In this document: positions 5,947 through 64,000 of the stretch, piece after piece
Position numbering within the stretch: the first letter of the stretch is position 1
Layout of the letters: each line of letters begins with the position of its first letter
Assembly: GCA_964387845.1 (NCBI GenBank)
Contig: CAYLXA010000013.1
Span: 1 to 64,000 of the forward strand
Direction: 5' to 3'
DNA: 64,000 nt
Origin: an uncultured bacterium
Lineage (GTDB): Bacteria > Omnitrophota > Omnitrophia > Omnitrophales > Abzuiibacteriaceae
Translations under genes and position numbers: made by a program
The notes under the pieces: model-generated
The model's database searches: none
What the model saw: only the letters and a program-made list of their open reading frames with translations
Told to the model about the DNA's origin: nothing

Positions 5947-7389
<1,443 letters not shown>

Positions 7390-26604: not shown

Positions 26605-27465
26605 TTAATGAGCGTGCGCCGCTTCGGCAGCATGCCCGTGGTGATGATCTTCATGAGGTAAAACAAGTGAAATATACACCGTTGAAAGCAGCATAAACAC
26701 AAACGCCTGCACCATGCTGAACGCAATCGCAAGCACGTTGGCGAATATTTGCAGCAGGAACGGTATTCCCTTAAATAAAACGTTTAACTCCGCAAATTTA
26801 AAAAGCAGTTTGTCTTCGCTGGAAACGTTTGCAAATAAACGAAGCGACAAACTCAGGGGCACGGCAACAAACTCGACTGAAAGATTAATAACGAGCATGA
26901 GCGGAATTAAAATGTAGCCAAACAAATTAGAAGGATTTCCGGCCACATGCTTCAAATAATGCACCGGGCCTTGTGCGCGGATTCCGGTCCATTGAACGTA
27001 AGCGGTTGTGAATATTGCAAGCGCCGCGGTAGTTCCCCAAACCGCCGTTGAAGATTTCATCAGAGGCACTAAACCGCTCCAGTTCATGAGAAGAATGTAA
27101 ATAAAAACGGTCCCTAAAAAAGGCACATGCTCGCGGCCCCGGTCTCCGAGAATTCCGGTGACGAAGGTTTCGATGCCTTCAACGAATAATTCCACAAAAT
27201 TTTGGATGCCTTTCGGGATGAAGCTTGCTTTTCGGACTGCCGCAACGCCGACGAAAATAATCAATGCCGCCGCTGTCATCGAGAAAATAACGTTTTCCCA
27301 GCGGTGCAGGAAATGAACGATTTCAGAATCCGGGAAAGTGTTGTTGAGTACGGTAATTAGATTGGCAAGCTCATGATGCGCTTCACCGTGATGGGCGCCG
27401 GCCGCTGCGTGATGAACGGCTTCGGCTGCATGTTCGGCGTGACTTGCGACTTCGTGTTCCGTCAT
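26605..27465 (-). CDS. atpB: Fo ATP synthase subunit a with His-rich N- and C-terminal tails
   Basis: Conserved LSLRLFANV (essential Arg) and 5 TM helices. N-terminal HAEHAAEAVHHAAAGAHHGEAHHE and C-terminal HEDHHHGHAAEAAHAH. Confidence 0.85.
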   Translation of the reverse strand: MTEHEVASHAEHAAEAVHHAAAGAHHGEAHHELANLITVLNNTFPDSEIVHFLHRWENVIFSMTAAALIIFVGVAAVRKASFIPKGIQNFVELFVEGIETFVTGILGDRGREHVPFLGTVFIYILLMNWSGLVPLMKSSTAVWGTTAALAIFTTAYVQWTGIRAQGPVHYLKHVAGNPSNLFGYILIPLMLVINLSVEFVAVPLSLSLRLFANVSSEDKLLFKFAELNVLFKGIPFLLQIFANVLAIAFSMVQAFVFMLLSTVYISLVLPHEDHHHGHAAEAAHAH

Positions 27466-48800: not shown

Positions 48801-51800
48801 GGCTGCGAAATACTGACAGTCGATATAGATATTGTTGTTGTGCTGAATCGCCGCAAAATCTGTGTAGTTGAAGTAAGCTGCGCAATAAGCCGGCGCCGCT
48901 TCTTTTTTGTAAACGATGTTGTTTAAGAACTGAATGTTGGGGGCGCTTGACGGACTTGCCTCTGCGCCGATGAGGACCACGTAACTATCGTATCCGTTGC
49001 CGATCAGTAAATTGTTATAGAATCGGCCGTTTTCTTGGACGTTGTCCAAAGACAAAGCTTTTCCGATCGATGCGTCTACCACGTTATTAAAGAATTCAAT
49101 GTTGGAACCTATGCCGCCGACCGTGCCGTTGATGTAATTGTTGTAATAGCGGCTGTTACGGTTGAGTTGAAGTGCGCCCGAAAGGCCGGCGTTGATCGTT
49201 ATGTTGTTCGAAAATAAATTGCCAGCAGCATGTCCATAAATCACATGGCCGTATCGGTCATAGGTGTATTGCCAAGGATCTGATATTTCTGAAAGGCATA
49301 TCTCAACAGGATAGCTGGAGTCGTCGGCAATGACGAGAGGCCCGATATTTTCAAATCGGTTGTTCTGATAAGTAAAATAGTTATCAATTGTCGGGTGGGG
49401 CGTTAGATCCGCGATACCCATGCTATTAAGGCTTCTGAGAGTACTGTCATAAACTTCGATATATTGACCGGGATTTCCGCCGGGCAGCGGGTTCATTTTA
49501 ATACCTTCCTCGCCATGCTGAATGGTTAAGCCGATGAAACGGATGTAGGATGCTGACGTGTAAAACCGGTTTTGTCCGGGAAAGTAAAACGAATGTTCTG
49601 ACGGGTTGGTCCCGGACGGGAGGCGAATGTATAAGCGCCCACTTGTGCAATCGATAAAATAAGCGTTGAATGAAGTATTGGAATTCGGGATTGTTAATAC
49701 ATCAAGCATATCTTGATGACGGAGCATGCGGCTGAAGGGCCGTTCAAGATCCATGATTATGCCTCTCGGATAATTTCCTTCACCGCCGTTTGCGTTAGGA
49801 TCGTATGTTCCAAGCGATGTATCAGTCCACCAGATTGAATAATTGCCCGCGTTTTCTGAAAATGTCCAGTTTGAAGGAATGCTTGCTCCCGAATCAATGA
49901 CCGGTGTTTCGCCGGGATAGTTTCGAATGGTTACCCACTGATTCGGCGCTCCGCCGCGATCCATAAGGTTGTAGGATCCAAACGGCTGTGTTCCACCGCG
50001 GATGTAAACCGTATCTCCAGGATTGAGCTGATCAAACGTTGCGCTTACATTGCAAATCGGCTGGGCAAGAGATCCGGGGCCGCTGTTGCTGCACGCCGGA
50101 TTATTTGCATCAACTACGTAGTAATTTCCCGCGCAATCGTTTGAACAATCAAAATGGCTTTCACGCCGGAGATCACAGTAACCGTCACCGCAAGTCCCGG
50201 CGCAATCCTGCGAGCAGGTTTGAACCGTCTCTGGCGCTTCACAAATACCGTCGCCGCAAAGTGCGGTAGTGGTAACCGAAAAAGACGCTTCAATGGTGTG
50301 GGTTGTTTGTACGTTGTTAAACGTATAACTGGAAATAGCGCCTTGCGAAACGCTGTCGACGAGCACATCCGTAATTTCGTAACCGATATTGGGCGTGATT
50401 GTAAATATTTGATCGCTGCCTTCGGCAACATTGACCGTGCCGTTCGGTACAATGTAGCCGCCGTTATTTGCTGTTGCATTAATTGAATGTGAAGGGCCTT
50501 CTACTTGGCAGATTGAGCTGCAGCCGTCGCCGCTTGCCGTATTGCCGTCGTCGCAAGTTTCATTGCCGACGACTAAACCGTCACCGCAAATTGGATTACA
50601 TTCTGGGTTGCTGCCGGGATTTACAGTGTCAACGGAACAGGTCCAACCGGCCTCGTAATAAATCGTGTCTTGCATAATGGCCGAAATGTTTCCAACACTA
50701 TCAATCAATCTGGCAAACACTGTCCGTTCACCGCTCGGCCCGCTGGCAAGTTTCCAGCGCATGACGTTTTCATACGGAGTCGGGTCACTCCAAATTGTTC
50801 CGTTATTAGAAAATATTACGGATGTGATCGAGGATCCGCCTGAGTCAGAAACCGTTAAGTAGATATGCGAGTCTAACGAATAAGTAACCGCCGCGTCATT
50901 CTCAATCAGTATTGTTCCGCTCGGCGGTTCAAGATCAACGACAAACTGAACCACATTGGAATATTCGGTTGGGTTCCGCCCAAGTTGAAACGGCGGCACG
51001 GGCGGTGATTCCCATCCGCGCACGCGGGCGTGATAAGTATTTGAGGTGCTCAACGAAACAGGAACAAACGTATCGTTTGACCAAAGAGTCGTAACATTGG
51101 AAGCAAAATTAGGGTCGGTTGAAATTTTGATTTCGTAAGCATTTGAGCCCAGCGACGGAGTCCAAGCGAGATTAAAATCGCCGTCATTGGGCGTTGCGGG
51201 TTGCGCCAGAACAGGCTGGACGGCGGCTTGTGACGCAAAAGCCCCAATGTGGCAGCCTGTGCTTCCGGTTGGCGTGACGGAAACATTAAAACCGTTTTCG
51301 ATGACATTAAGGCACATGCCCGAGTGGCTTGCAGGACTGCCCGGTTGAAGATTGAAATCAGCGTTTGCGAGATCCACAAATTGCGGATCTGCTTGAATAT
51401 TTGAATCTGCCAGATTGAAGTTATTAAAATCAGCTACTGAGTAAAGCCCGCTCACCACGATTTGCCCGTTTCCGCCGCCATCTTTTAAAGCTCTAATAAC
51501 CGAAGTTTCGTGGGCCGGATTAGACGAGTAAATCAAATTATTTCGAATGTCATCGCCGTATCCGCCAAAATTCGTATCAACATATTCCAGCGGATCGTAA
51601 TGAAGCATTAGTAGCTCAGCATTGAAAGTATTGCCGAAAGAGACTGGTGAAACATAATCATGGTTGGCATCCATCAAAATATTGTTCCAGATGCGGACAT
51701 TATATATAGCATTCAGGGCGTCCGGAGGATTCCAGTTGAAATTGGCAGTATAAATTCCACGCGGCCCCGGACTGTGAATGGTATTGTTAAAGATGTATAC

Positions 51801-54800
51801 GTCCTGAATTAAATTTTGGTCAGCAACATTTGCAACGAGCGTGATTCCGGTAGAATCGTTAAATCCGTCATAAATAACGTTATTGTAAATGTAAAGTCGT
51901 TCTGTTTTTCCGGGCCCGATTTGAATTGCGCCGCCGCGGTGATTTGATTCTGAAGGGAATTGGTTGGTTCCAAAAAACGTGTTATTTCGAATAATCGTAT
52001 TTTGTGAAATGCCGGGATTTCCGTCAATTGAACCGATGCCGAATGAAGTGTGAAACCGATTTCGGAATGTATTATTCTCTATTAAAACATTTTCAGAATT
52101 CCGGAAACCGACAGTTCCATGTCCGCAATCACCGAACCAGCTGTTTTTAATAGTCGTATTTCTTGCATCATCGCCAACAATTCCGTCAACGCCGCCGCCG
52201 TTCATCAGAAGCAAGCTCGGGCTTGCCGTGCAATTTAAATTTAAATTGTCAATCTCTACTCCATCGGTATCGAGAACTTTAATTCCGTTTGCCCAAGGTT
52301 CCGCGTAACTTTGCTCCGGCGGCCAGCGGTGGCCAATGCCGATATCATCATTTCCGGTGAATGAAGTGACTGATATATTTTTGAGCTTGACGCCATTTGA
52401 CCGTTGAATGCCAAGCACGTAGGGTGCATACAATCTTCCGCCTGCGGTATCGATATGCCCAATGAAATTTAATGAATCAAAAGTAATGTCGTTTGCCAAA
52501 TAAGTTGTCAGCATATATATGCCGATATTGCTGCCTTGAGCCGTCATACTGCTGCCGTGTAAATTCACGGTTTCATTCGGATAGCCGCGAATCGTAATCG
52601 GGTTTGCCTCAGTTCCCGAACTTCGGATGACAATAAAATTGTTTGCATCAATGTAGGGGAGGAAGTAATCGCCGCCCCGAATGTAAACCGTATCGCCGAT
52701 ATTTAATTTTTCATAAGGAGACGTTTCACGAAGCGCTCTCGGCGTGCACCACGGCGTATTGGGATCGAGTGCTTGAGTTCTTGAGTAACTGTCCGAACAG
52801 TCACAATTATTTTGATCAATGAAAAGCATATTAGTTCCGTTCGCAAGCTCTTGCGGGTCGGAACTGCCGACCGTGCATCCGCCTTCGGATTGGCTTGTAT
52901 ATTCAAATGCGCCGGGCGCGCAACTTCCGCTTTCAGGACGCGGATTTCCGTCAAAATCCACCGCAACTTCCGGAAGACAAGGGACCGAGCCGATCGCAGG
53001 GCTGTCCTGCTGTAAATGAAAATCGCCGATACCAGCGTTTACGAAAAGCGGGTTGCCGTCTACGTTGTCTTCGGCGAATGACAGTGCATTAAATTCGTCG
53101 ATGGTGTAGTGATAACGCTGCGTGTTCCGATTGTTGGTGCTTTGGACCGGGTCTTCGGCAGGATTGAGTTCTTTGACCCAGTTATTTTCAAACACATTTC
53201 CATAGCCATTTTGGCCTTCAAAATCCCAGCCGCCCAGCCGGATTTCGCCGTGAATTTGTTCTCCTTCGCCCGTATAAGTTTGAATTCCGTAGAAAATATT
53301 ATTTTTGATTTGATTATTATTGGCCCAATTATTTTGGCCGAAAACGCCGTTATTGCCGACGCTCATGTTGGCGTAGCCTGTGTTGTAAACCGTGTTGTGA
53401 AAGATTTTATTGTTGTTGGCTTCAAAGAATCCGGTGCCGGGCCCGTTTTGATCCTGAGAATTGGCAATCGAAATTCCGTTTCCATTTAATGCGCCGTTGT
53501 AAATCACATTGTTATAAATCAGGTTGTCACTGGCCCCCAAAATCTGAATGCTGTTTGCGCGAAGCGTGGTCTCCGAAGGAATTGAATTGTAAGTATGAAA
53601 CGTGTTATTCCGGATGATGTTATCGTGAGAACCGACACCAACGGCGATATTGGTATGGAGCGTATTTGAAAAATCATTATTTTGCACCAAAACGTCATGC
53701 GTATTAAAACGAAGCACAAGTAGAATGTGGCCGCAGTCACGGAATGTATTGTTTTCGATTAAGCCGCCCGAGACATAATCCATCATGATGCCATCGCCGG
53801 AATAGCGGTTGTCCGGGTTAATTTGATCGTTAACTTGCATGCATCGGAAAAAACTATTCTTCACTGTGATGTTGCTTGCATTATCAAATTCGATGCCGTT
53901 GCCATAAGGTGCATTAGGAGCGCGATCGTCGTAGCCGATGTCATCGGTGCCTTTGAAGTCAACAACCGAAATGCTGTCAAATACAATATCGCTGCTTCCG
54001 CTGACAACCTCAATGACTCGCGGGCCATACAATTTTCCGTTTGGGTTACCAACATCCACGTTGCCGACAAAATGAAGATTTTCAAATGTGATGAAATGAA
54101 CGTCATTCAGAACAAATGTGCGTTCGAACGCTGTGTGCGCACCGCGGATGACTGCCGTTTCGCCGGGATATGAAGTGAATGTAATTCGGTTGCTATCGCT
54201 TGTGCCCGATGAATTGATTCTGACTGTGGTATCGACGATCGGATATTCACCGCCGCGAATATAAACGGTGTCGCCTGCGTTTAATTTGTGATTGGGCCGG
54301 TTTTCATGAAAGCCAAGAGGCGAACACCAGGGTGTATAAGGATCGCGTGCCGCATACCGGTCTCCAGCGTCGCTGCAGTTGCAATTATTTTTATCCACAA
54401 AGAGAACATTGGCGCCGTTGGCAAGCCCTTGCGGGTCAGAGCTTCCGGCTATGCAGCCTCCGAGCTCTGATGGGTGATTGTTGGGATCGTTGGGATTAAA
54501 TCCGCCTGCAAATTCTTCACCGTCTGAGTAGCCGTCACCGTCTGTGTCCGGATTATTAGGATCCGTGCCGTTTTGAAATTCCTGCAGATTGATAAATTGA
54601 TCATTGTCCGGGTCATCCGTGCCGTTTTGATTGAGATTGCCGAAGTGCAGCATTTCCCAAACGTCCGGCAAACCGTCTTGATCTGTATCTGAAGTGTCGT
54701 TGTAAACATACTCGAATGGACCGATGTCGCAGGCAGCGCCTTGCGGCCGGATATGGTTGTCAAAATCAAAATCTACTTCAGGAACACAGATTCCGGCATC

Positions 54801-56777
54801 CACTGCCGAGCTTTGCTCGGTTGGGTGAAAATCGTGATTCTGCGGATCGACAAATAAAGGCACGGTTCCGAGATTATCTACGATTGTTCCAGTCCCAAAA
54901 AGGTTATCCAGATTTTGAAGTGTGTAATCAAAGTGTATATACGGAGGATTGGAAGTTCCAAAATTTCGCGTAGACATCACAAATCCGCCCGGGTTGTCAG
55001 TCACCAGCAAATTATTTTTGATTTCATTTCCGTAACCCTGATTGGGTTCGAAGCCATAAATATCAAAGAAAATAGGACGGTTGAGATAATACGCATATGT
55101 CTGAGAGTAAGGTCCGTCGGCAGCTCCGCCGGTTTTAAGCTGGATGATATTGTTTTGCACTTTGTTGTCATGCACATAATTGGTATTTGGCAACAGGACG
55201 TCATTTATATCCGGACGATTATTAAACTCAATCGCTTTTACCATAGAGTTGTGCGTGGTTGCTGTCGGGTCGTCCATATAAATTAAATTATGATAAACCT
55301 GGTTCCGGTCGGAATTCGAATCGCCGTTTCCGATAAAAGTAATGCCGTGCAAGGAACGCCGCCTCGGCTCGTCAGCGTCGTAGTAAATGATGTTGTTGTG
55401 GATTTGGCTGTCGGAAGCCGAGAGCATTTCAATGGCATGGCCGCCTTGGTTTCCCGTGGTCGGGTACACATTCCAGTTGTAAATCAAATTATTTTTAATA
55501 GTCATTTGACTGCCGCCGAATGCAAAGCAGGTATGAAGTTCGTTATTACAGGAATTATTTTCAACCGTTATGTTGTCAGACCATCTAACCGTTAAGCTGA
55601 TATGTCCGCAATTTCCAAAAGTACTATTTTTTACGCTGCCACCGGATACGCGATTAAATTGAATCCCGTCGCCCGAGAAGCGAAAATCTTCGGTCGGGCG
55701 CTCAGAGTATTCAGAGCAGCTGACAGATGCATTCTCGATTTTAATATTAGAAACGTCATCAAATTGTATTGCACTCCCCCAAGTTTCATAGTCTTCCCCG
55801 GTTTTCCGCCACCTAAAGCCGTAACCGATGTCATTGAGGCTTTGAAAATTAAGAACGCTTGTATCTAAAATTTGAATATCTTGGGCTGGATTTCCAACAG
55901 TCCCGCTAATTCTCAACGGATTCGGCATGTAAAGTCTGCCTTCCGGCGTATCTTCATAGGCAATAAAATTAAGCCCCTTTAACGTAATGTAGCTGGCGTT
56001 ATTCAAGATCAGAATCCACGAATAATTATAAGAGCCGCCGCGTATGGTAACCGGCTCATAACCACTCGGTTCAGTTTGAGAGGGATATGCTTGGATCGTG
56101 ATCCGCTGCGCAGGCCCGGCGCCGGACGTATTAACGCTCGCATTATGTTCCGTATAGTCGCCGCGGCGAATGAAGACTGTATCGCCCGGATTCAATTTAT
56201 GGTTTGGCCTGTATTCGGTTAACCCGCGCAAACTACACCACGGTGTTGCGGGATTTAAGGCTTCCGGGCGTTCACGGTTATCGCGGCAATTACAATTGCT
56301 CTGATCGACAAACAGAACATTCAGCCCATTTGCCAAATTCAAAGGATCTGTATTGTTGTCACACTGACGAAGTGGAATACTGCTTGCGTTGGTCGGGCTA
56401 CTGCCTAATCTGATCTCGTCGTCATCATTGACGCCATCTCCGTCTGTGTCATATCCGATGTTTCCGTTGCCCACAGTTGGATTGGTATTAAAAGCAACTT
56501 CCCGAAAGTTGGGCACTCCGTCTCTATCCGGATCGTCGTATTGATCATAACTTGTGATATCGCCAAAGTATTGAATTTCCCAATCATCTGAAAGGCCATC
56601 AAAATCAGTGTCAATTTCACCGGCGGCAATTTGGGGAAGGGGAATGCCCATGAAGACGAGCGTGAAAATAATGATCAAAGAAACAAAATCAGAAAGAAAT
56701 TTGGAAACAACTTTCTTGAACTGCCGGGATTTTATTTTTTTTTTGTGTGATTTATCTGATTCGGAGCTTCGTCCCAT
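45891..56777 (-). CDS. giant (3628 aa) secreted/surface protein of repeated modules
   Basis: Uninterrupted 10.9-kb ORF with an N-terminal K-rich/hydrophobic signal. Four modules each begin ...LANG.N.LF.D..NC.C...PWC... GDTVYIRGG, followed by NN.I..N beta-helix-like turns. Modules: calcium-binding (thrombospondin type-3-like) DxDxDG repeats, four ~550-aa right-handed beta-helix (pectate-lyase-fold-like) domains, fibronectin-III-like stretches, two InlB B-repeat-like segments (YTFNNV..HTIEA.F), and about a dozen tandem ~38-aa Cys-rich repeats (CDDGN.CNGTETC). Confidence 0.85.
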   Translation of the reverse strand: MGRSSESDKSHKKKIKSRQFKKVVSKFLSDFVSLIIIFTLVFMGIPLPQIAAGEIDTDFDGLSDDWEIQYFGDITSYDQYDDPDRDGVPNFREVAFNTNPTVGNGNIGYDTDGDGVNDDDEIRLGSSPTNASSIPLRQCDNNTDPLNLANGLNVLFVDQSNCNCRDNRERPEALNPATPWCSLRGLTEYRPNHKLNPGDTVFIRRGDYTEHNASVNTSGAGPAQRITIQAYPSQTEPSGYEPVTIRGGSYNYSWILILNNASYITLKGLNFIAYEDTPEGRLYMPNPLRISGTVGNPAQDIQILDTSVLNFQSLNDIGYGFRWRKTGEDYETWGSAIQFDDVSNIKIENASVSCSEYSERPTEDFRFSGDGIQFNRVSGGSVKNSTFGNCGHISLTVRWSDNITVENNSCNNELHTCFAFGGSQMTIKNNLIYNWNVYPTTGNQGGHAIEMLSASDSQIHNNIIYYDADEPRRRSLHGITFIGNGDSNSDRNQVYHNLIYMDDPTATTHNSMVKAIEFNNRPDINDVLLPNTNYVHDNKVQNNIIQLKTGGAADGPYSQTYAYYLNRPIFFDIYGFEPNQGYGNEIKNNLLVTDNPGGFVMSTRNFGTSNPPYIHFDYTLQNLDNLFGTGTIVDNLGTVPLFVDPQNHDFHPTEQSSAVDAGICVPEVDFDFDNHIRPQGAACDIGPFEYVYNDTSDTDQDGLPDVWEMLHFGNLNQNGTDDPDNDQFINLQEFQNGTDPNNPDTDGDGYSDGEEFAGGFNPNDPNNHPSELGGCIAGSSDPQGLANGANVLFVDKNNCNCSDAGDRYAARDPYTPWCSPLGFHENRPNHKLNAGDTVYIRGGEYPIVDTTVRINSSGTSDSNRITFTSYPGETAVIRGAHTAFERTFVLNDVHFITFENLHFVGNVDVGNPNGKLYGPRVIEVVSGSSDIVFDSISVVDFKGTDDIGYDDRAPNAPYGNGIEFDNASNITVKNSFFRCMQVNDQINPDNRYSGDGIMMDYVSGGLIENNTFRDCGHILLVLRFNTHDVLVQNNDFSNTLHTNIAVGVGSHDNIIRNNTFHTYNSIPSETTLRANSIQILGASDNLIYNNVIYNGALNGNGISIANSQDQNGPGTGFFEANNNKIFHNTVYNTGYANMSVGNNGVFGQNNWANNNQIKNNIFYGIQTYTGEGEQIHGEIRLGGWDFEGQNGYGNVFENNWVKELNPAEDPVQSTNNRNTQRYHYTIDEFNALSFAEDNVDGNPLFVNAGIGDFHLQQDSPAIGSVPCLPEVAVDFDGNPRPESGSCAPGAFEYTSQSEGGCTVGSSDPQELANGTNMLFIDQNNCDCSDSYSRTQALDPNTPWCTPRALRETSPYEKLNIGDTVYIRGGDYFLPYIDANNFIVIRSSGTEANPITIRGYPNETVNLHGSSMTAQGSNIGIYMLTTYLANDITFDSLNFIGHIDTAGGRLYAPYVLGIQRSNGVKLKNISVTSFTGNDDIGIGHRWPPEQSYAEPWANGIKVLDTDGVEIDNLNLNCTASPSLLLMNGGGVDGIVGDDARNTTIKNSWFGDCGHGTVGFRNSENVLIENNTFRNRFHTSFGIGSIDGNPGISQNTIIRNNTFFGTNQFPSESNHRGGAIQIGPGKTERLYIYNNVIYDGFNDSTGITLVANVADQNLIQDVYIFNNTIHSPGPRGIYTANFNWNPPDALNAIYNVRIWNNILMDANHDYVSPVSFGNTFNAELLMLHYDPLEYVDTNFGGYGDDIRNNLIYSSNPAHETSVIRALKDGGGNGQIVVSGLYSVADFNNFNLADSNIQADPQFVDLANADFNLQPGSPASHSGMCLNVIENGFNVSVTPTGSTGCHIGAFASQAAVQPVLAQPATPNDGDFNLAWTPSLGSNAYEIKISTDPNFASNVTTLWSNDTFVPVSLSTSNTYHARVRGWESPPVPPFQLGRNPTEYSNVVQFVVDLEPPSGTILIENDAAVTYSLDSHIYLTVSDSGGSSITSVIFSNNGTIWSDPTPYENVMRWKLASGPSGERTVFARLIDSVGNISAIMQDTIYYEAGWTCSVDTVNPGSNPECNPICGDGLVVGNETCDDGNTASGDGCSSICQVEGPSHSINATANNGGYIVPNGTVNVAEGSDQIFTITPNIGYEITDVLVDSVSQGAISSYTFNNVQTTHTIEASFSVTTTALCGDGICEAPETVQTCSQDCAGTCGDGYCDLRRESHFDCSNDCAGNYYVVDANNPACSNSGPGSLAQPICNVSATFDQLNPGDTVYIRGGTQPFGSYNLMDRGGAPNQWVTIRNYPGETPVIDSGASIPSNWTFSENAGNYSIWWTDTSLGTYDPNANGGEGNYPRGIIMDLERPFSRMLRHQDMLDVLTIPNSNTSFNAYFIDCTSGRLYIRLPSGTNPSEHSFYFPGQNRFYTSASYIRFIGLTIQHGEEGIKMNPLPGGNPGQYIEVYDSTLRSLNSMGIADLTPHPTIDNYFTYQNNRFENIGPLVIADDSSYPVEICLSEISDPWQYTYDRYGHVIYGHAAGNLFSNNITINAGLSGALQLNRNSRYYNNYINGTVGGIGSNIEFFNNVVDASIGKALSLDNVQENGRFYNNLLIGNGYDSYVVLIGAEASPSSAPNIQFLNNIVYKKEAAPAYCAAYFNYTDFAAIQHNNNIYIDCQYFAAGGIEWSSPDPITNFNNWRSFLNGVDTYSSLQTATDVLMVNFSEAPSVNDYDLHSESAAIDAGFPMPNLHTDVRDRPRDAQTDIGPYEYQSTLQNENPTVDLGNDQTVAFGTSAIINGGVTDDGLPNPPGAVTVSWSQVTSSGGIATFNPPNNTSTSVTFSHPGSYQLRLTADDSMLTGSDDIMISVNFSAPPGVSANPPSPNLGAFNLEWDAVPGAAIYQVQLSPDPNFVQNIDERWPSGIFEPFVISQTGTYYARVQAWSQPPQDGGFGSGFSPAITIVVQACLTDANCSDNNTCNGTETCVSGSCQPGTPLACDDGNLCNGTETCDSVLGCQLGAPLNCGDADACNGIESCDPTLGCLSGVPLNCDDGIACTNDSCDSLSGCVHTTDNSVCSDGLFCTGAEICNAALGCQSNPAPCSGPNLICDETNDQCTGCLNDSDCDDSNACNGTETCQAGICTAGTSLVCDDGNICNGTETCDSALGCQSGIPLTCDDGNVCNGPESCDSTLGCQTGAPLVCDDGNPCTAEACDPATGCESTPVVDGMSCSDGLFCTGAEICIAGICQNGTEPCSDPDHCDEPNDQCFACISDSECGDGNLCNGAEACVNNTCQAGTPLVCDDANVCNGTETCDPGLGCQASAPLVCDDGVSCTNDSCDSVNGCANTPDDSICSDGLFCNGSETCNATAGCQSGTSACDTGEECDEANDMCICPEGAPCNPLAFTITASASEGGQISPVGDVVVNEGDNATFTITPDSRYEIQDVLVNSTSVGAVSSYTFNNVTSDHTIEATFAVIPESPATNGETQNPPDSNPDEGGPENGSPQETANPQNTGGYYTPGIVGVIVPYNNPSPGTQPAAASGSGNVPRQAASNTKANVSGAIATITGGLETLDESAVVQNEPISTAKSLIQSSTRVAPLQIGVASLQQLDKFNGEMIRLRGGPKPSGNPVKTFFEILFEILVEKAPTTISLSV

Positions 56778-59048: not shown

Positions 59049-59133
59049 CGTTATTGCGAGGCGCCTTAATCAGCGTCGCGGCAATCCCTGTTCTGAGATT
59101 GCTTCGGCGTTAATCAACGCGCCTCGCAATGAC
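59049..59133. repeat. 85-bp palindromic element with ATTGCGAG terminal inverted repeats, copy B (3' of the membrane-protein gene)
   Basis: ATTGCGAGGCGC ... GCGCCTCGCAATGAC. The 3' half is nearly identical to copy A (gattgcttcggc...caacgcgcctcgcaatgac). Confidence 0.65.
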
Positions 59134-59154
59134 AGTTCAATTTATACTTTAAAA

Positions 59155-59412
59155 TTATTCTAATTCCTGCAAAAACGAATTCCGGCTTTTCAAATCGACA
59201 AACACAACCTGGTCTGGATAATTTAACCCCGCTTCACTGACAAATACTGTGGTGCCGTTGATCTGAAACGCCATTACCTCGCAACCCTCGATGGGAAGTT
59301 TGTTCCCGCCCCCTATGATTTTATCGACAATTTCCTGGCTTACGGCTTTGGCTTTTTGGCCGCGCGCGTCGAGGTAATTCACCAGGATTGTCTTTAGGTC
59401 TTGGATTGTCAT
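59155..59412 (-). CDS. hypothetical 85-aa protein (candidate target of the adjacent LacI-family regulator)
   Basis: ORF with a GGAGAAAAGAGG RBS. A LacI-type palindrome lies 29 bp upstream of its ATG. Confidence 0.5.
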   Translation of the reverse strand: MTIQDLKTILVNYLDARGQKAKAVSQEIVDKIIGGGNKLPIEGCEVMAFQINGTTVFVSEAGLNYPDQVVFVDLKSRNSFLQELE

Positions 59413-59440
59413 TGTTATTTCCTCTTTTCTCCGGTTTTAT

Positions 59441-59454
59441 TGTAACCGGTTACA
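59441..59454. promoter_or_regulatory. LacI-family operator palindrome TGTAACCGGTTACA (site 1, upstream of the 85-aa ORF)
   Basis: Perfect 14-bp palindrome fitting the LacI/CcpA-type TG.AA.CG.TT.CA pattern. Overlaps a TACAAT -10-like hexamer on the minus strand. Confidence 0.6.
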
Positions 59455-59472
59455 TAAAAATTAAAAAAAATA

Positions 59473-60489
59473 TCAATCCGATTTTCTTATAACCAATTCC
59501 GGATCAAATTTGGTTTGAACAGGAGCTTTTACCTTATTTGTCACTAAGTTAATTAGAGTTTCGCATGCAGTGCGTCCCATGGTTTCGAGTGGTTGGCGCA
59601 CGGAAGTAAGCGGCGGCGTGAACGTTTCGTTTTTAGGCGAGTCATCAAAGCCGGCGATGGCTACATCATCCGGGATGCGAAGCCTCGCTTCTTTGATAGC
59701 ACGGACAGCTCCCCGTGCCAAATCATCATTGGCGCAGAAAATCGCGCGCGGCAGTTTCTTATTTTTAATCCAATTTGCAGTTACGACAAAACCATCTTGT
59801 TCGTCAAACCGGGCCGCTTGCGGTAAAAATTCATCACGAAGCTTAAATTTTAGATTTCTTGAAGCGGATTTAAATGCTTTGAATCGGGCTCTTGCGTCCA
59901 GGGAAATATACTCCGGCCCTCTGAGCATCCCGATGGTTCGGTAACCCCGCCTGATGAATCGTGAACAGATGGCTTCGACTCCGCTTTGATTACTGCAGTA
60001 AACGATACTGGATTTAACGCTAGGCTCATAGTCATTAATGAGCACGACGGGAAGTTTTGAATGAGTTTCGATTTCCCGGATTAATTTTGGGAAGAGGCGC
60101 CAGGTCAAAAAAATGATGCCATCAACAGCGTGTTTCTGCAGAAGGTCTTTGAGGTTGCATTGTTCAATTTCAGCATCGCGGATCATGATCCATTTCAAAT
60201 CATATGTGCAAGCGTACATTCCTGTGATGATTCCCGAAATAAGGCCTTCATAGTAATTGCTTTTCACAAGATCGGTTGAAAATGGCGTCACCATGCCGAC
60301 CGTGTTGGTGGTTTGCTTGCTCAGCGCGCGCGCAGATTGACTGGGAATGTAATTGAGTTTACGAATTACTTTTTCAATTTGTTTTTGCGTTTCGGAGTGC
60401 ACAAGGTGCTTTTTGTCGGGATCCATGTAGCGGGATATGCTTGCTACCGAAACTCCCGCTTGCTTTGCCACATCTCTGATTGTTGCCAT
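59473..60489 (-). CDS. LacI-family transcriptional regulator
   Basis: N-terminal HTH MATIRDVAKQAGVSVASISRY and a periplasmic-binding-protein-like effector domain. Internal start with an AAAGGAG RBS is preferred. Confidence 0.85.
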   Translation of the reverse strand: MATIRDVAKQAGVSVASISRYMDPDKKHLVHSETQKQIEKVIRKLNYIPSQSARALSKQTTNTVGMVTPFSTDLVKSNYYEGLISGIITGMYACTYDLKWIMIRDAEIEQCNLKDLLQKHAVDGIIFLTWRLFPKLIREIETHSKLPVVLINDYEPSVKSSIVYCSNQSGVEAICSRFIRRGYRTIGMLRGPEYISLDARARFKAFKSASRNLKFKLRDEFLPQAARFDEQDGFVVTANWIKNKKLPRAIFCANDDLARGAVRAIKEARLRIPDDVAIAGFDDSPKNETFTPPLTSVRQPLETMGRTACETLINLVTNKVKAPVQTKFDPELVIRKSD

Positions 60490-60502
60490 AAAGCTCCTTT
60501 TT

Positions 60503-60516
60503 TGTAACCGGTTACA
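60503..60516. promoter_or_regulatory. LacI-family operator palindrome TGTAACCGGTTACA (site 2, upstream of the regulator gene itself)
   Basis: Identical 14-bp palindrome 14-27 nt upstream of the lacI-family ATG, implying autoregulation. Confidence 0.6.
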
Positions 60517-60692
60517 TTGGAAAGGTAGCACAGCTTTGCCCTTTGTCAAGGTGCCGATTTATGAGTGCGCCGCGTTTTTGAAAAACAGGTTGGCCGGTCG
60601 ATATATTCGGCCGGATTGTCGGATATGCGGGAGATGTATTTTTTAAGTTTATCGAGATAAGCCTATAACTGACTATATTAGTCGGAATTTGG

Positions 60693-60721
60693 TTTGACAG
60701 TTCCGCCGAAGTGGACTATGA
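60693..60721 (+). promoter_or_regulatory. sigma70-like promoter TTGACA-17-TATGAT upstream of the sulfite/nitrite reductase gene
   Basis: -35 at 60693-60698, -10 at 60716-60721. Downstream AAGGTGAAAA RBS and ATG at 60776. Confidence 0.5.
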
Positions 60722-60775
60722 TAGGCGTCACTTTCAGCAAGATTCCAAGCCGAGAGTCCCCAAATAAGGTGAAAA

Positions 60776-62503
60776 ATGCTCGATAAATTGGTATTGCCTT
60801 CAGAAATTAAGAAGTTTGAGGAGATGGTGATTAAGCTCGAAAAGGGCGAAATCTCATCCGATGAATTCAAAAAATTCCGCCTCAATAATGGTGTCTACGG
60901 AATCCGCAATTCTGACGACACCCACATGATCCGCATTAAAATCCCGTTCGGCGCTTTGAGTTCCGAACAGCTGGAAGCCATTGCAGATGCGACCGAGAAA
61001 TACGCGCCGCTGAAGATGGGGCACGTCACGACCCGTCAATGTATTCAGGTTCACAAGATCAAGCGCGAAGATGTTGCTAAATATTTGGATATCATCGGAA
61101 AAGCCGGTGTCACGAGCCGTGAAGCGTGCGGCAACACAGTTCGAAATGTGACCGCATGTCCCTACGCAGGTGTTTCAAAATCCGAAGCTTTTGACGTGAG
61201 GCCCTACGCTGAAGTCATAGTCGAATATTTTCTGCGCAATCCGCTCAATCAAAATTTACCGCGGAAATTCAAAATCGCACTCGAAGGATGCCCGGAAGAT
61301 CACGCACGCACGCCGATTCATGATTTGGGGCTTGTGGCTGCGATTCGCAAGGTGAACGGAAAAGAAGAGCGCGGCTTTAAAATTTATGCGGGCGGCGGCT
61401 TGGGAAGCCACCCGGTCAGCGCCGTGCTGCTCGAACCTTTCACGCCGATGGAACTCGTTTTGCCGACGTGCGATGCGACGGTCCGCATTTTTGAGCGCCA
61501 CGGAGACCGCAAGAACCGTTCACGTGCTCGGATTAAGTTTTTGCTTGAAGATTGGGGCGAAGAAAAATTCCGCAAAGCGATTTTAGATGAGCGGGCTGCT
61601 GTTCTTTTCACACGATCGGGCCTAGCGTATCCTAAATTTGATATTCAGGACGAAAAACCGCCGGTTGTAAAAGAAAAGGCTGAAAAAGTGACATCGCCTG
61701 CGTTCGAAAAGTGGCGAAAGACCAACGCGGTTGAACAAAAACAAAAAGGTTTTTACTCGGTCGCAATCCGCTGCCCGCTGGGTGATGTGACGGTTTCCCA
61801 GATGCGCGATATCGCAAAAATCGCGCGCAAATTCTGCGGAGGCAGAATTGTAACTACTATCACACAAAATTTCATATTCGCGTGGGTGCACGAAAATTAT
61901 CTGGGGTCTGTTTATAAAGAGCTCGAAAAAATTAATCTCGCATTTGATGGCGCCGAGCGCTTCATTGATGTGACGCGCTGCCCGGGAGCTGACACTTGTA
62001 ATCTCGCGATTACAAAATCGCGCGGGCTTGCGCAGGCAGTCGATCAGCTTTTCAATAACGGATTGAGCCCGCTTTCAGATCTCGAGGGAATCGACATTAA
62101 AATTTCAGGCTGCCCGAATTCTTGCGGCCAGCACCATATTGCTTCGATGGGTTTTTACGGAACTGCCCGGAATGTAAACGGAAAACTCGTGCCGCACTAT
62201 GAATTAATGATCGGCGGCGGAACGGTAGAGGGAAAAGCCACGTTTGGCGTTGCCACGATCCGGATCCCTGCGCGCAAGACGCCGGATGCCGTCAAACACT
62301 TGGCCGGCATTTATCAAAAGGAAAAAAAGTCGGACGAGACATTTAATCAATTCGCTGCCCGCATCGGAAACGAGCGGATCAAGAAAGAGCTCGAACCGTT
62401 TACGCATTTGGAAGCGTATGATACCGATCCCGAAAACTATCAGGATTGGACCGACGAAGCACCGTTTAAACTTCAGGTCGGCAAGGGCGAATGTGCAGCT
62501 TAA
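60776..62503 (+). CDS. ferredoxin-dependent sulfite/nitrite reductase hemoprotein (siroheme-[4Fe-4S])
   Basis: Two NIR/SIR repeats and cluster-binding Cys motifs C-x5-C (CPGADTC) and C-x3-C (CPNSC). Confidence 0.85.
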   Translation: MLDKLVLPSEIKKFEEMVIKLEKGEISSDEFKKFRLNNGVYGIRNSDDTHMIRIKIPFGALSSEQLEAIADATEKYAPLKMGHVTTRQCIQVHKIKREDVAKYLDIIGKAGVTSREACGNTVRNVTACPYAGVSKSEAFDVRPYAEVIVEYFLRNPLNQNLPRKFKIALEGCPEDHARTPIHDLGLVAAIRKVNGKEERGFKIYAGGGLGSHPVSAVLLEPFTPMELVLPTCDATVRIFERHGDRKNRSRARIKFLLEDWGEEKFRKAILDERAAVLFTRSGLAYPKFDIQDEKPPVVKEKAEKVTSPAFEKWRKTNAVEQKQKGFYSVAIRCPLGDVTVSQMRDIAKIARKFCGGRIVTTITQNFIFAWVHENYLGSVYKELEKINLAFDGAERFIDVTRCPGADTCNLAITKSRGLAQAVDQLFNNGLSPLSDLEGIDIKISGCPNSCGQHHIASMGFYGTARNVNGKLVPHYELMIGGGTVEGKATFGVATIRIPARKTPDAVKHLAGIYQKEKKSDETFNQFAARIGNERIKKELEPFTHLEAYDTDPENYQDWTDEAPFKLQVGKGECAA

Positions 62504-62505
62504 TT

Positions 62506-62539
62506 TAGTGATAAGTTGTAAGTGGTAAGTGCTAAGTTA
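62506..62539. repeat. GTAAGT-heptad repeat arm R4
   Basis: tagtgataagttgtaagtggtaagtgctaagtta. A single arm between convergent gene ends. Confidence 0.6.
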
Positions 62540-63068
62540 ACTGCCAAGCAAGTTCCAAAAAATCTTTCTTCGTAGAATCCCAGCCGAATAATTTCGCACC
62601 GCGGGCTTTACCCCTGACTCGAACGGAGTCAGGGACTGCGTCGGCCGCGAAGCGATCGGCTTCGCTGTCCGCGCTGTCTTTTGTAACGTCGACTACTAAA
62701 TAATTCACATCAGGCATCAGAGGGCTGCCATCAAACGTCGCTTGTTTTTTATCTTCGTCCGAAAAATAAGAACCGACATCAACGTGAGAATGATAAATAA
62801 TCCGGATGACCTCGTCTTTTGTACGGGCGACTTTTTCGATATTCAAAAGGTCTTTGGGATCTAAAAAGTAGGCAGTTTTGCTTGTTCGCGGAAACTTTTG
62901 AGGGTCGCTTGCGTGCATTTCATCCTGCAAATTCCGGCAGGGAAACGAGTTTTCAAGACTTGCGGGAATCCCTTTTTTGCCGGTAATGATACCGCAACAT
63001 TCGGAAGGATAGGCTGAAATAGCATGGCGATAAACCGCGTCTATGATTCGTTTTTTGATTGTAACCAT
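62532..63068 (-). CDS. JAB/MPN (JAMM) metalloprotease, Mec+-like
   Basis: JAMM motif E...HSHVDVGSYFSDED (H-S-H-x7-S-x2-D). Confidence 0.75.
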   Translation of the reverse strand: MVTIKKRIIDAVYRHAISAYPSECCGIITGKKGIPASLENSFPCRNLQDEMHASDPQKFPRTSKTAYFLDPKDLLNIEKVARTKDEVIRIIYHSHVDVGSYFSDEDKKQATFDGSPLMPDVNYLVVDVTKDSADSEADRFAADAVPDSVRVRGKARGAKLFGWDSTKKDFLELAWQLT

Positions 63069-63100
63069 AGTTGTAAGTGGTAAGCGCTAAGTGTTAAGTA
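63068..63100. repeat. GTAAGT-heptad repeat arm R5
   Basis: tagttgtaagtggtaagcgctaagtgttaagta. Contains the JAB start codon and the last 4 codons of the four-helix-bundle gene. Confidence 0.6.
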
Positions 63101-63455
63101 AAAGGGATTTTTGAAAACCGCAAAGCATTCTTCCGACCTCATCACAATTTTCTGAAATTAGTTCAAACTTTTCATGACTAATATAAGCCAAATCAAAGCC
63201 TAATAACAGATGATATTTAGTTTCTTCTAGAGAGCTATCAGCTAAGTTTAGAAAATGCAGAAATTCTTTCCTGCTTTTTCTCTTTTGTCCTTCTACGATG
63301 TTTGTAGAAATGGAAGCGGCAGCTCTGCGTAATTGACTAGATAATCCGAATTTTTCGTCTGACGGGAAGCTTTTAGTAATTTTATAAACTTCCAAAACCA
63401 ATCGATGAGCTTTTTGCCAGACTTTTAAATCACGAAATGTACTAATTTTATTCAT
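63087..63455 (-). CDS. four-helix-bundle protein of the 23S rRNA intervening-sequence protein / Avd-like family
   Basis: 122 aa with the family-typical DLKVWQKAH...EKFGL.SQLRRAA.SI..NI.EG pattern. Confidence 0.7.
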   Translation of the reverse strand: MNKISTFRDLKVWQKAHRLVLEVYKITKSFPSDEKFGLSSQLRRAAASISTNIVEGQKRKSRKEFLHFLNLADSSLEETKYHLLLGFDLAYISHEKFELISENCDEVGRMLCGFQKSLLLNT

Positions 63456-63500
63456 AAACCCTCCTTGAATTAATATGATTATTTAATTCGTGGAGGGAAA

Positions 63501-63537
63501 AACTTATCACTTACAACTTACCACTTAAAACTTAGTA
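63501..63537. repeat. GTAAGT-heptad repeat arm R6 (inverted relative to R5)
   Basis: aacttatcacttacaacttaccacttaaaacttagta is the reverse-complement type of R4/R5. Confidence 0.6.
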
Positions 63538-64000
63538 CCTTGCCATGCTCGGATCAACGCGCTCAGCCCACACATCGATTCCGCCGGTCAGGTTTTTCAA
63601 CTTCTTAAACCCGCGCGATTGAAGGATTTGCAGCGCTTTCATGCTGCGCCCTCCGTGATGGCATTGCAGCACAATCTCTTTTGAGGGATCAAGCTCTCCG
63701 GTTCGATTTTGAATTTCACCCAGCGGAATGAGTTTTGAACCTTCAATGTGGCAAATGTCGTATTCAAACGGCTCGCGAACATCAATCAAAACCACTTCTT
63801 TCCTGTCGAGTCTCTTTTTGAGTTCTTCAACCGTGATTTCAATCGAATCGCCTTTTCCTTTTGCTGCATCTTCACCGACAGATTCCTGGCCGATCCGCAG
63901 GCCGCAAAATTGTTCGTAATCGATTAATTTTTTAATCGTCGGATTTTTTCCGCAGATGGGGCACTCCGGATCTTTTCTTAGTTTCAATTCGTGAAAGCGC
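63532..64000 (-). CDS. MoeZ/MoeB-type E1-like adenylyltransferase fused to a rhodanese domain (C-terminal part; the gene runs off the window)
   Basis: CPICGK (C-terminal Zn CxxC of the ThiF/MoeB fold) followed by a rhodanese domain with active-site CHHGGR. The N-terminus lies beyond 64000. Confidence 0.75.
   Translation of the reverse strand, partial: RFHELKLRKDPECPICGKNPTIKKLIDYEQFCGLRIGQESVGEDAAKGKGDSIEITVEELKKRLDRKEVVLIDVREPFEYDICHIEGSKLIPLGEIQNRTGELDPSKEIVLQCHHGGRSMKALQILQSRGFKKLKNLTGGIDVWAERVDPSMARY

What the first reader, a model, noticed from the sequence alone, without database searches (positions are those of the whole stretch)
59441..60516. LacI-family regulator with two identical 14-bp operators: one on itself, one on a tiny unknown gene
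The perfect palindrome TGTAACCGGTTACA occurs twice in the window. One copy (60503-60516) lies just upstream of the regulator's RBS. The other (59441-59454) lies 29 bp upstream of the 85-aa ORF at 59155-59412, overlapping a TACAAT -10-like hexamer. The palindrome fits the LacI/CcpA operator pattern (TG.AA.CG.TT.CA). This defines a two-member mini-regulon: autoregulation plus repression of the 85-aa protein of unknown function. The regulon lies next to the sulfite-reductase locus.
Basis: partly seen in the sequence, partly recalled or inferred. Interest (0 to 1): 0.5.

Follow-up and report, generated by a model that had tools for sequence, protein, structure and literature searches.

The report
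Autoregulated LacI repressor with orphan small-protein target
A LacI-family repressor gene in an Omnitrophota genome is flanked by two identical, evolutionarily frozen 14-bp operators, so it most likely controls itself and the tiny gene downstream; the circuit is textbook, and only the 85-residue target protein is new.

Summary
TGTAACCGGTTACA occurs exactly twice in 64 kb, at 60503-60516 (O1) and 59441-59454 (O2). No other site has fewer than 3 mismatches.

Both genes lie on the minus strand in tandem:
- O1 overlaps the start site of a conserved TTGACA-16-TGnTAnnnT promoter.
- The 338-aa LacI-family gene follows.
- A 60-nt gap holds a conserved T-tract and O2.
- The 85-aa gene comes last.

Seven independent Omnitrophota lineages (regulator identity down to 56%) keep this order. 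O2 is exact in all seven and O1 in six (L011 has one mismatch), while flanks and neighbours diverge. A 49% ortholog keeps O1 only.

In unrelated metagenome contigs, 27 of 120 sampled exact copies of the 14-mer lie 0-200 nt upstream of distant LacI-family genes. Most of those proteins share this regulator's recognition helix (VSVA[ST]xSR).

The small gene is probably co-transcribed and blocked at O2, or else has a weak own promoter.

The adjacency to sulfite reductase is not conserved. The small protein is real (third-codon-position variation, pLDDT 83, predicted two helices plus four strands) but has no known sequence or fold relative. It always follows a LacI-family gene.

Verdict: an ordinary circuit with an orphan target, of modest interest.

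The parts
60544..60549 (-). -35 hexamer TTGACA of the regulator's promoter
   Evidence: Invariant CTTGACA in all 8 lineages aligned. The promoter scan flags the same element in L013 and L014. The mechanical 358-aa ORF's TTG start falls in this hexamer.
60522..60527 (-). -10 hexamer TACCTT, preceded by a TG (extended -10), 16-nt spacer
   Evidence: TG..TA columns are invariant in alignment A5. The orthologous hexamers are TACCTT, TATTCT, TACATT, TATAGT, TATTTT, TAGTAT and TATATT. 'TG_before_second: yes' in L013 and L014.
60503..60516 (.). Operator O1, TGTAACCGGTTACA. It starts 5 nt after the -10 hexamer, so it covers the expected transcription start, and it lies 13 nt before the regulator's ATG.
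   Evidence: Exact match. Conserved at 13-14 of 14 positions in 8 lineages, including a 49%-identical ortholog.
60494..60499 (-). Ribosome-binding site AAGGAG of the regulator gene
   Evidence: Read from the sequence. Purine-rich stretches at the same place in most orthologous loci.
59473..60489 (-). LacI/GalR-family regulator gene: 338 aa, recognition helix VSVASISR, hinge ARAL, no tetramerisation tail
   Evidence: Pfam LacI 9e-14 and Peripla_BP_3 2e-34. Best solved relatives are RbsR and PurR at E about 1e-36, with the hinge Leu aligned to the Leu of PurR's ARSL hinge motif (L54 by my numbering). The orthologous clade is 335-340 aa, and all named members are Omnitrophica.
59463..59470 (-). 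T-tract (T8 here, at least T5 in all lineages), 9-16 nt upstream of O2, directly after the regulator's stop codon
   Evidence: TTTTT is invariant in alignment A6 of 7 lineages. Its function is inferred: either a weak RNA:DNA hybrid for a polymerase stalled at O2, or part of a -35/UP region.
59441..59454 (.). Operator O2, TGTAACCGGTTACA, in the 60-nt gap between the regulator gene and the small gene, ending 28 nt before the small gene's ATG
   Evidence: Exact match. All 14 positions invariant in 7 lineages plus L010.
59419..59436 (-). Conserved leader AACCGGAGAAAAGAGGAA. It contains the small gene's ribosome-binding site, and an AACCGG that can pair with CCGGUU of O2 in RNA (-7.7 kcal/mol).
   Evidence: Conserved in the window, L001, L007, L010 and L011, and partly in L005 and L014. 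Fold.
59155..59412 (-). Gene for an 85-aa acidic (pI 4.8) soluble protein of an orphan family, predicted as two helices followed by four strands
   Evidence: Differences fall mainly on third codon positions (7/3/35 and 14/5/30). About 18 stand-alone relatives among 1.84 billion representative proteins. AlphaFold pLDDT 83. No match in Pfam, NCBIfam, PHROGs, PADLOC or PDB. It follows a LacI-family gene in every lineage examined.
59049..59134 (-). Long stable hairpin (-49 kcal/mol) between the small gene and the convergent Urate_ox_N-domain membrane-protein gene; probable end of the transcription unit
   Evidence: RNA fold of the minus-strand transcript. It has no U-tract, so the terminator role is inferred.

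Best explanation
This is a two-gene module of an uncultured Omnitrophota bacterium: a dimeric LacI/GalR-family repressor followed by an 85-aa protein, controlled by two identical high-affinity operators.

The repressor binds O1, which overlaps the transcription start of its own sigma-70-type promoter (TTGACA-16-TGnTACCTT). This limits its own synthesis, which is negative autoregulation.

It also binds O2, 18 nt after its own stop codon and 28 nt before the small gene. No intrinsic terminator and no good promoter are detectable between the two genes. The small gene is therefore most likely co-transcribed with the regulator gene. Repressor bound at O2 would then act as a roadblock that stops read-through. 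The conserved T-tract lies where the RNA:DNA hybrid of a stalled polymerase would sit, which would favour transcript release. This uncouples a low, homeostatic level of repressor from a tightly shut-off small gene.

An unidentified small-molecule effector, by family precedent probably a sugar or nucleoside derivative, would release the repressor from both sites and switch on the small protein.

Shown here: family membership, exact sites, their positions, their deep conservation, and the match between recognition helix and operator. Inferred: binding itself, repression, roadblock rather than promoter occlusion at O2, the effector, and the role of the small protein.
For: 1. Exact sites and chance expectation.
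2. LacI family: HTH and effector domains. The full length aligns to RbsR and PurR, with the hinge Leu conserved.
3. Phylogenetic footprint: seven independent lineages (window, L001, L005, L007, L011, L013, L014; regulator identity 56-82%, small-protein identity 36-92%) keep the order O1-lacI-O2-small gene. O2 is exact in all seven and O1 has a single mismatch in L011, while the flanks diverge. A 49% ortholog without the small gene keeps exact O1 behind TTGACA-16-TATATT and has no O2.
4. Promoter geometry: the -35, the TG and the -10 are invariant, and O1 starts 0-11 nt after the -10.
5. Independent link between operator and protein: of 120 metagenomic stretches holding the exact 14-mer, 36 encode a LacI-family protein (22-43% identical), and in 27 the site lies 0-200 nt upstream of that gene. 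Most of these proteins share the recognition helix VSVA[ST]xSR with this regulator.
6. No terminator-like or promoter-like site on the coding strand between lacI and the small gene in the window, L013 or L014. The O2 hairpin alone is weak.
7. The T-tract upstream of O2 is invariant. A pyrimidine-rich hybrid upstream of the gal OI operator favours pausing and backtracking at a GalR roadblock (PMC4693257).
8. Autoregulation is found in 72% of LacI-family regulators and a central CG in 1173 of 1303 motifs (PMC4052901).
Against: - No binding, transcript-mapping or expression data exist.
- A weak promoter overlapping O2 (about TTTTTA-17-TACAAT, 8 of 12 matches) cannot be excluded. TACAAT is present in 3 of 7 lineages, and the T-tract could be part of a -35/UP region.
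- In L011, O2 lies 90 nt from the ATG. This fits either model.
- There are no sugar-catabolic or transport genes nearby, unlike most local LacI regulons, so the effector is unknown.
- Only 64 kb of the genome was scanned, so other operators may exist.
- The stall position of a polymerase at a roadblock (about 10-15 nt upstream of the protein) is recalled from the literature, not measured here.
Confidence: 0.8

Rival explanations
1. Same repressor and same operators, but the small gene has its own promoter overlapping O2 (-10 TACAAT inside and next to the operator, T-rich -35/UP region). O2 then represses by blocking polymerase binding, and the two genes are separate transcription units.
For: TACAAT overlaps the right half of O2 in the window, L007 and L014, and TACATT in L005. 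TTGnnn hexamers 15-17 nt upstream in L001, L007, L011 and L014, plus an invariant T-tract. In the unrelated locus L130, the same 14-mer lies upstream of a LacI-family gene and twice more downstream of that gene, ahead of the next ORF.
Against: The consensus promoter scan finds nothing on the coding strand at O2 in the window, L013 or L014, although it finds the lacI promoter in L013 and L014. The last base of the putative -10 is T in only 4 of 7 lineages, against all 8 for the lacI promoter. No terminator separates the genes. The conserved AACCGG that pairs with the operator core in RNA only makes sense if the operator is transcribed.
Confidence: 0.35
2. The palindromes are bound not by the adjacent regulator but by another LacI-family protein of the cell, for example a global CcpA-like catabolite regulator recognising cre-like sites. 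The module would then be one target among many.
For: The sequence fits the cre-like pattern TGNAANCGNTTNCA. The same 14-mer is used by many different LacI-family proteins, so specificity is not unique to this protein.
Against: The sites travel with the gene through all rearrangements of the neighbourhood, and O1 persists in the 49% ortholog. There is no other LacI-family gene and no other site in the 64-kb window. The regulator's own recognition helix is the type found next to this 14-mer elsewhere. Its score against the CcpA model is far below the cut-off, 146 against 442 bits.
Confidence: 0.07
3. The repeats are not protein-binding operators but structural or recombination elements: RNA hairpins or terminators, or the ends of a mobile cassette that carries the lacI gene.
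For: The copies flank the lacI gene. The module occurs in different neighbourhoods. Several short-read contigs break at or near O2.
Against: The hairpin is weak (-1.3 kcal/mol for the O1 leader) and has no U-tail. O1 sits at a fixed place between the -10 and the ribosome-binding site. Downstream synteny (Urate_ox_N-domain gene, NUDIX, AhpC) is kept across most lineages, so the pair is not hopping. No transposase or integrase is nearby. There are no extra copies.
Confidence: 0.03

Closest known systems
E. coli GalR/GalS (LacI/GalR family) with the gal operators OE and OI
   Same: - Dimeric LacI-family repressor.
- The recognition helix of the same type, VSVATVSR, is recalled from memory for GalR.
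- The operator half-site is of the same TGTAA type: gal OE is GTGTAAACGATTCCAC (PMC2887952).
- Two operators per unit, one of them inside the transcribed region where bound GalR can act as a roadblock. There, a pyrimidine-rich hybrid just upstream promotes pausing (PMC4693257).
   Different: - Only about 25-30% identical; the NCBIfam GalR score is 123 bits against a cut-off of 557.
- The operators here are about 1060 bp apart with variable spacing and flank the regulator's own gene, whereas in gal they are 113 bp apart and loop with the help of HU.
- The target is an orphan 85-aa protein, not galactose enzymes.
- The effector is unknown.
Typical local, autoregulated LacI-family regulons (RegPrecise-type reconstructions, Ravcheev et al. 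2014, PMC4052901), for example locus L130 found here
   Same: An even palindrome with a central CG, a site in the regulator's own 5' region, and a further site in front of the adjacent downstream gene. L130 has the identical 14-mer at -48 and at +1064/+1116 relative to its LacI-family gene, the latter two ahead of the next ORF.
   Different: 96% of LacI-family groups with an assigned pathway control carbohydrate genes (PMC4052901). Here no sugar transporter, kinase or hydrolase is consistently linked. A PF10091 glycoamylase-like gene follows in only 2 of 7 lineages. The only conserved target is a small protein of unknown function.
CcpA with its small protein co-repressors HPr/Crh (Firmicutes)
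   Same: A LacI-family regulator, a cre-like operator pattern, roadblock repression at internal sites, and an approximately 85-aa protein associated with the regulator.
   Different: The CcpA equivalog score is far below the cut-off. The small protein has no PTS-HPr match in any of 22 family members. Its predicted fold starts with two helices, which as I recall it differs from the HPr fold. No interaction has been tested. In Firmicutes the HPr gene is not the regulator's downstream neighbour (own knowledge).

Membership tests
LacI/GalR family of transcription regulators | N-terminal LacI-type helix-turn-helix DNA-binding domain | tested here: met
   Pfam PF00356, E 9e-14, residues 3-50, covering the full 46-position profile.
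LacI/GalR family of transcription regulators | C-terminal effector domain with the type I periplasmic-binding-protein fold | tested here: met
   PF13377 at 1.7e-34 and PF00532 at 7e-13. End-to-end alignment with the RbsR (9ny7) and PurR (2pua) crystal-structure sequences, E about 1e-36.
LacI/GalR family of transcription regulators | Hinge helix with a leucine that inserts into the central CpG of the operator | tested here: met
   Met at the sequence level only. ARAL aligns with PurR ARSL, which contains Leu54. The operator has a central CG. Insertion itself is not testable here.
LacI/GalR family of transcription regulators | Even palindromic operator with a central CG in the 5' region of regulated genes, commonly including the regulator's own gene | tested here: met
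   Family statistics from PMC4052901.
LacI/GalR family of transcription regulators | Specific binding of the protein to the operator, released by a small-molecule effector | not testable with these tools
   Indirect support only: recognition helices of the VSVA[ST]xSR type co-occur with this exact 14-mer in 20-odd unrelated loci.
Tetrameric, loop-forming LacI (E. coli lac repressor type) | C-terminal tetramerisation helix, and operators kept in helical phase | tested here: not met
   The protein ends at residue 338. The alignment to the 360-aa LacI covers query 3-318 against LacI 5-310, leaving only 20 residues against 50. O1-O2 spacing is 1050, 1059, 1062, 1063, 1063, 1067 and 1238 bp across lineages, so it is neither constant nor in phase.
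CcpA / cre catabolite control | Orthology to CcpA, and an HPr/Crh-type partner protein | tested here: not met
   TIGR01481 scores 146.5 bits against a cut-off of 442. No family member of the small protein matches PTS-HPr or any other Pfam family at E of 0.01 or better.
Any described protein family or fold, for the 85-aa protein | Significant sequence-profile or structure match | tested here: not met

The most novel reading that the evidence does not exclude
The 85-aa protein may be more than a passive target. It could be a dedicated partner of this LacI-family clade: a small acidic protein that binds the basic repressor as anti-repressor or co-repressor and closes a feedback loop, or the sole output of a ligand-switched 'repressor plus small effector protein' module. 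This is suggested by the strict pairing of lacI with the small gene at a roughly 60-nt gap. The pairing holds down to 27% small-protein identity and across otherwise unrelated neighbourhoods. No other conserved target was seen.
Probability: 0.12. Interest if true: 0.6.

Novelty: new member of a known kind. Interest (0 to 1): 0.3.

Why it matters
This gives a clean, comparatively validated operator-regulator pair for Omnitrophota, a candidate phylum with no genetics. It also shows that sigma-70-type promoters with TTGACA and an extended -10 are used there.

It flags a rare orphan family of small proteins: about 18 representatives among 1.84 billion proteins. Its expression appears to be the only conserved output of a ligand-sensing repressor.

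If the conserved T-tract plus operator proves to be a repressor-dependent stop signal inside an operon, it would be a tidy natural example of how one operator sequence can give different degrees of repression for regulator and target.

Otherwise the circuit is standard and does not change current understanding of LacI-family regulation.

Tried and rejected

2. Giant-protein hits. The small-protein profile hit giant 1700-4200-aa proteins. These were rejected as repeat-driven: they are cadherin-repeat proteins with many short matched stretches.

3. Weak PDB hits. Matches to the HU N-terminus (E 0.63) and to MIF/tautomerase (E 0.2) are not significant, and the structure search does not support them.

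4. Genome-wide regulon. The GTDB genome scan with the small-protein alignment returned only the already known MAG contig, after a first attempt failed for lack of conserved columns. It returned only unrelated organisms, so it could not enumerate further sites in the relative's 525-kb contig. It was nevertheless useful as an independent test of the link between operator and LacI-family genes. L081, from the same metagenome as L014, turned out to be a high-GC unrelated organism.

5. Link to sulfite reductase and sulfur-carrier cysteine synthesis. Rejected, because the adjacency is not conserved. The sulfite reductase gene also has its own near-consensus promoter about 180 bp from O1.

6. DNA looping between O1 and O2. 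Rejected (see the membership test).

7. An intrinsic terminator between lacI and the small gene. None was found.

8. Literature. No paper contains the 14-mer, and none links the LacI family with Omnitrophota.

9. Source contig. The look-up of the window's own regulator (P0005) for its source contig found nothing on record.

Full report
**Observation**

The 14-bp perfect palindrome TGTAACCGGTTACA is present at 59441-59454 and 60503-60516, exactly as reported. Allowing up to three mismatches adds one site (17238, three mismatches), which lies inside a long ORF. A second exact copy of a given 14-mer in 64 kb is expected about 2e-4 times. The degenerate family pattern TGNAANCGNTTNCA gives three hits against 0.18 expected. 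The third (26820) lies inside a histidine-rich membrane-protein ORF and is taken as chance.

**Anatomy**

Both genes are on the minus strand and in tandem. Reading 5' to 3' on that strand:
- TTGACA (60549-60544), then a 16-nt spacer ending in TG, then TACCTT (60527-60522), then 5 nt.
- O1 (60516-60503), then AAGGAG, then ATG at 60489.
- A 338-aa LacI-family ORF ending in TGA (59475-59473).
- TA, T8, AATTTTTA, then O2 (59454-59441).
- AUAAAACCGGAGAAAAGAGGAAAUAACA, then ATG at 59412.
- The 85-aa ORF with its stop at 59155.
- A long hairpin (59134-59049, -49 kcal/mol) facing a convergent gene.

The mechanical 358-aa ORF begins at the TTG of the -35 hexamer. The true start is ATG 60489, because all orthologs are 335-340 aa.

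**The regulator**

It has the Pfam LacI HTH domain and the Peripla_BP_3/BP_1 effector domain. It aligns end to end with the RbsR and PurR sequences of solved structures (E about 1e-36), and its hinge leucine (ARAL) sits opposite the Leu of PurR's ARSL hinge motif. It reaches no NCBIfam equivalog cut-off, so its specific function is unassigned. It lacks the C-terminal tail that tetramerises E. coli LacI. A clade of orthologs (49-100% identity) exists, and every member that carries a name is from Candidatus Omnitrophica.

**Comparative test of the operators**

The small protein has only four 90%-identity clusters of close relatives among 5.8 billion proteins. Starting from these and from regulator orthologs, I fetched loci from independent lineages.

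In the window and in L001, L005, L007, L011, L013 and L014, the order O1-lacI-O2-small gene is kept. Across these lineages, regulator identity falls to 56% and small-protein identity to 36%. O2 is identical at all 14 positions in all seven. O1 is identical in six and has one mismatch in L011. The flanks diverge, with mean column identity about 52%.

The only other invariant non-coding columns are:
- upstream of O1: CTTGACA and TG..TA (the promoter);
- around O2: a TTTTT run 10 nt upstream, and the ribosome-binding site with the ATG.

A 49% ortholog (L017) lacks both the small gene and O2 but keeps exact O1 behind TTGACA-16-TATATT. A 54% ortholog (L018) has a V-to-I change in the recognition helix and variant sites: TGAAACCGGTTACA, and TGTTACCGGTATCA in front of its own downstream gene.

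The neighbours differ between lineages. Sulfite reductase is adjacent in the window, L001 and L011. It is separated by a 904-aa beta-helix gene in L007/L008, and it is absent in L005, L013 and L014. That adjacency is therefore incidental.

**Independent link between this 14-mer and LacI-family proteins**

Thirty-six of them encode a LacI-family protein 22-43% identical to this one. In 27, the site lies 0-200 nt upstream of that gene. In four (L040, L080, L113, L130) a copy lies just downstream of the gene's end. L130 reproduces the whole arrangement, with sites at -48, +1064 and +1116 and the next ORF starting about 55 nt after the last site.

Most of these proteins carry the recognition helix VSVA[ST]xSR, the same as VSVASISR here. 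From memory this is also the GalR type. The gal OE operator is GTGTAAACGATTCCAC (PMC2887952), which has the same TGTAA half-site. The palindrome is therefore a widely used LacI-family operator, and this regulator has the matching reading head.

**Mechanism**

O1 begins 0-11 nt after the -10 hexamer in all lineages, so it covers the transcription start. This is the classical position for repression of initiation, that is, negative autoregulation. Autoregulation is reported for 72% of LacI-family regulators (PMC4052901).

For O2 there are two readings.
- Roadblock. Consensus scans find no promoter-like and no terminator-like element on the coding strand between the two genes in the window, L013 or L014. 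The same scan does find the lacI promoter in L013 and L014. This favours co-transcription, with the repressor at O2 acting as a roadblock.
- Own promoter. A weak promoter overlapping O2 remains possible at about 35%: TACAAT in 3 of 7 lineages, with a T-rich -35 region.

The invariant T-tract 9-16 nt upstream of O2 lies where the RNA:DNA hybrid of a polymerase stalled against the bound repressor would be. That stall distance is recalled from the literature, not measured here. In the gal operon, a pyrimidine-rich hybrid upstream of OI favours pausing and backtracking at the GalR roadblock (PMC4693257).

Looping between O1 and O2 is unlikely. The protein has no tetramerisation tail, and the spacing varies: 1050, 1059, 1062, 1063, 1063, 1067 and 1238 bp.

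**The small protein**

It is a real gene.
- Differences from orthologs fall mainly on third codon positions: 7/3/35 and 14/5/30.
- A profile search of 1.84 billion representative proteins finds about 18 stand-alone relatives of 70-100 aa.
- A 20-sequence alignment gives an AlphaFold model with pLDDT 83 and the topology helix 3-15, helix 20-32, strands 47-51, 54-58, 68-73 and 78-83.
- It is acidic (pI 4.8) and soluble; the regulator has pI 9.5.

No family library, PDB sequence profile or structure search gives a significant match.

Even the most distant detectable member (P0151, 27% identity) lies 62 nt downstream of a 339-aa LacI-family gene in yet another neighbourhood. The pairing is therefore the defining context of the family. 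In two lineages a PF10091 glycoamylase-like gene follows on the same strand. This is the only hint of a carbohydrate link.

**Verdict**

The system is an ordinary, autoregulated, local LacI-family circuit.

New points are:
- the orphan small-protein target, and its strict pairing with the regulator;
- the complete freezing of O2 (and near-complete freezing of O1) across deep divergence;
- a conserved T-tract next to the internal operator that may aid repressor-dependent transcript release.

Binding, the effector and the function of the small protein remain untested.

Noticed in passing
P0038-P0085; example locus L019:6001-6852: About 48 protein clusters, where named from Omnitrophica or Verrucomicrobiae, are 37-56% identical to this regulator's effector domain. 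They are only about 275-329 aa long and lack the LacI HTH domain. In L019 the upstream 347 nt hold no HTH-coding frame but do hold a 12-bp-arm palindrome, ATTAAAATTGTG(N4)CACAATTTTAAT. They may be HTH-less LacI paralogs of unknown role.
   Followed up: partly
L010:1-14; L002 and L003:107-120; L004:112-125: Four short-read (Logan) contigs end at or about 110 nt from O2, and L010 begins exactly with the palindrome. This may be an assembly break caused by the repeated palindrome.
   Followed up: no
L001:7761-7959: In the closest long relative (525-kb JGI contig), about 176 extra bases with a called 63-aa ORF sit between the regulator gene and O2. O1-O2 spacing is therefore 1238 bp instead of about 1060. 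O2 and the leader are unchanged.
   Followed up: no
window 59049-59134: A very stable long inverted repeat (-49 kcal/mol as RNA) lies between the small gene and the convergent Urate_ox_N-domain membrane-protein gene. It has no U-tract. It may be a bidirectional terminator or a stabilising element.
   Followed up: partly
window 60694-60722 and 60776-63987: The sulfite reductase gene has its own near-consensus promoter (TTGACA-17-TATGAT), about 180 bp from O1. Downstream lie a JAB/MPN-domain gene (62532-63068, Prok-JAB by Pfam), an unassigned 122-aa ORF (63087-63455) and a 151-aa ORF at the window edge (63532-63987). In relatives L001 and L011 the sulfite reductase sits beside JAB, ThiF-rhodanese, ThiS and PALP genes, which suggests a sulfur-carrier cysteine-synthesis locus.
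   Followed up: partly
window 45891-56777 (minus strand): A giant 3628-aa ORF. In relatives the corresponding gene carries beta-helix and pectate-lyase-like (Pel9A-like) Pfam hits, and in L007/L008 a 904-aa Pel9A-like gene lies directly upstream of the regulator. No operator lies near it.
   Followed up: no
L013:7418-9259; L014:8150-9406: PF10091 ('Glycoamylase') genes follow the small gene on the same strand in two lineages, with no operator copy in front of them. They may be co-transcribed, and this is the only carbohydrate-related hint for the effector.
   Followed up: partly
L130:2363-2376, 3474-3487, 3526-3539: An unrelated low-GC organism uses the identical 14-mer three times: once upstream of its LacI-family gene and twice downstream of that gene, ahead of a 213-aa ORF that from its N-terminus (MGIEHMIDHTMLKA) looks like a deoxyribose-phosphate aldolase. 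The architecture matches the one studied here.
   Followed up: partly
L018:5851-5864 and 7131-7144: A 54% ortholog with VSIATVSR instead of VSVASISR has altered sites: TGAAACCGGTTACA, and TGTTACCGGTATCA in front of a pseudopilin-like (N_methyl/SBP_bac_10) gene. It sits next to a divergent second LacI-family gene and a GH2-like gene.
   Followed up: partly
P0133, P0137, P0140 and others: The small-protein profile (positions about 21-61, the beta-hairpin) matches many repeats in giant cadherin-repeat proteins of 1700-4200 aa. I judged this repeat-driven rather than homologous.
   Followed up: partly
window 26820-26833: A third match to the cre-like pattern (TGGAAACGTTTGCA) lies inside a histidine-rich membrane-protein ORF (26605-27465, minus strand). 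I took it as chance.
   Followed up: yes
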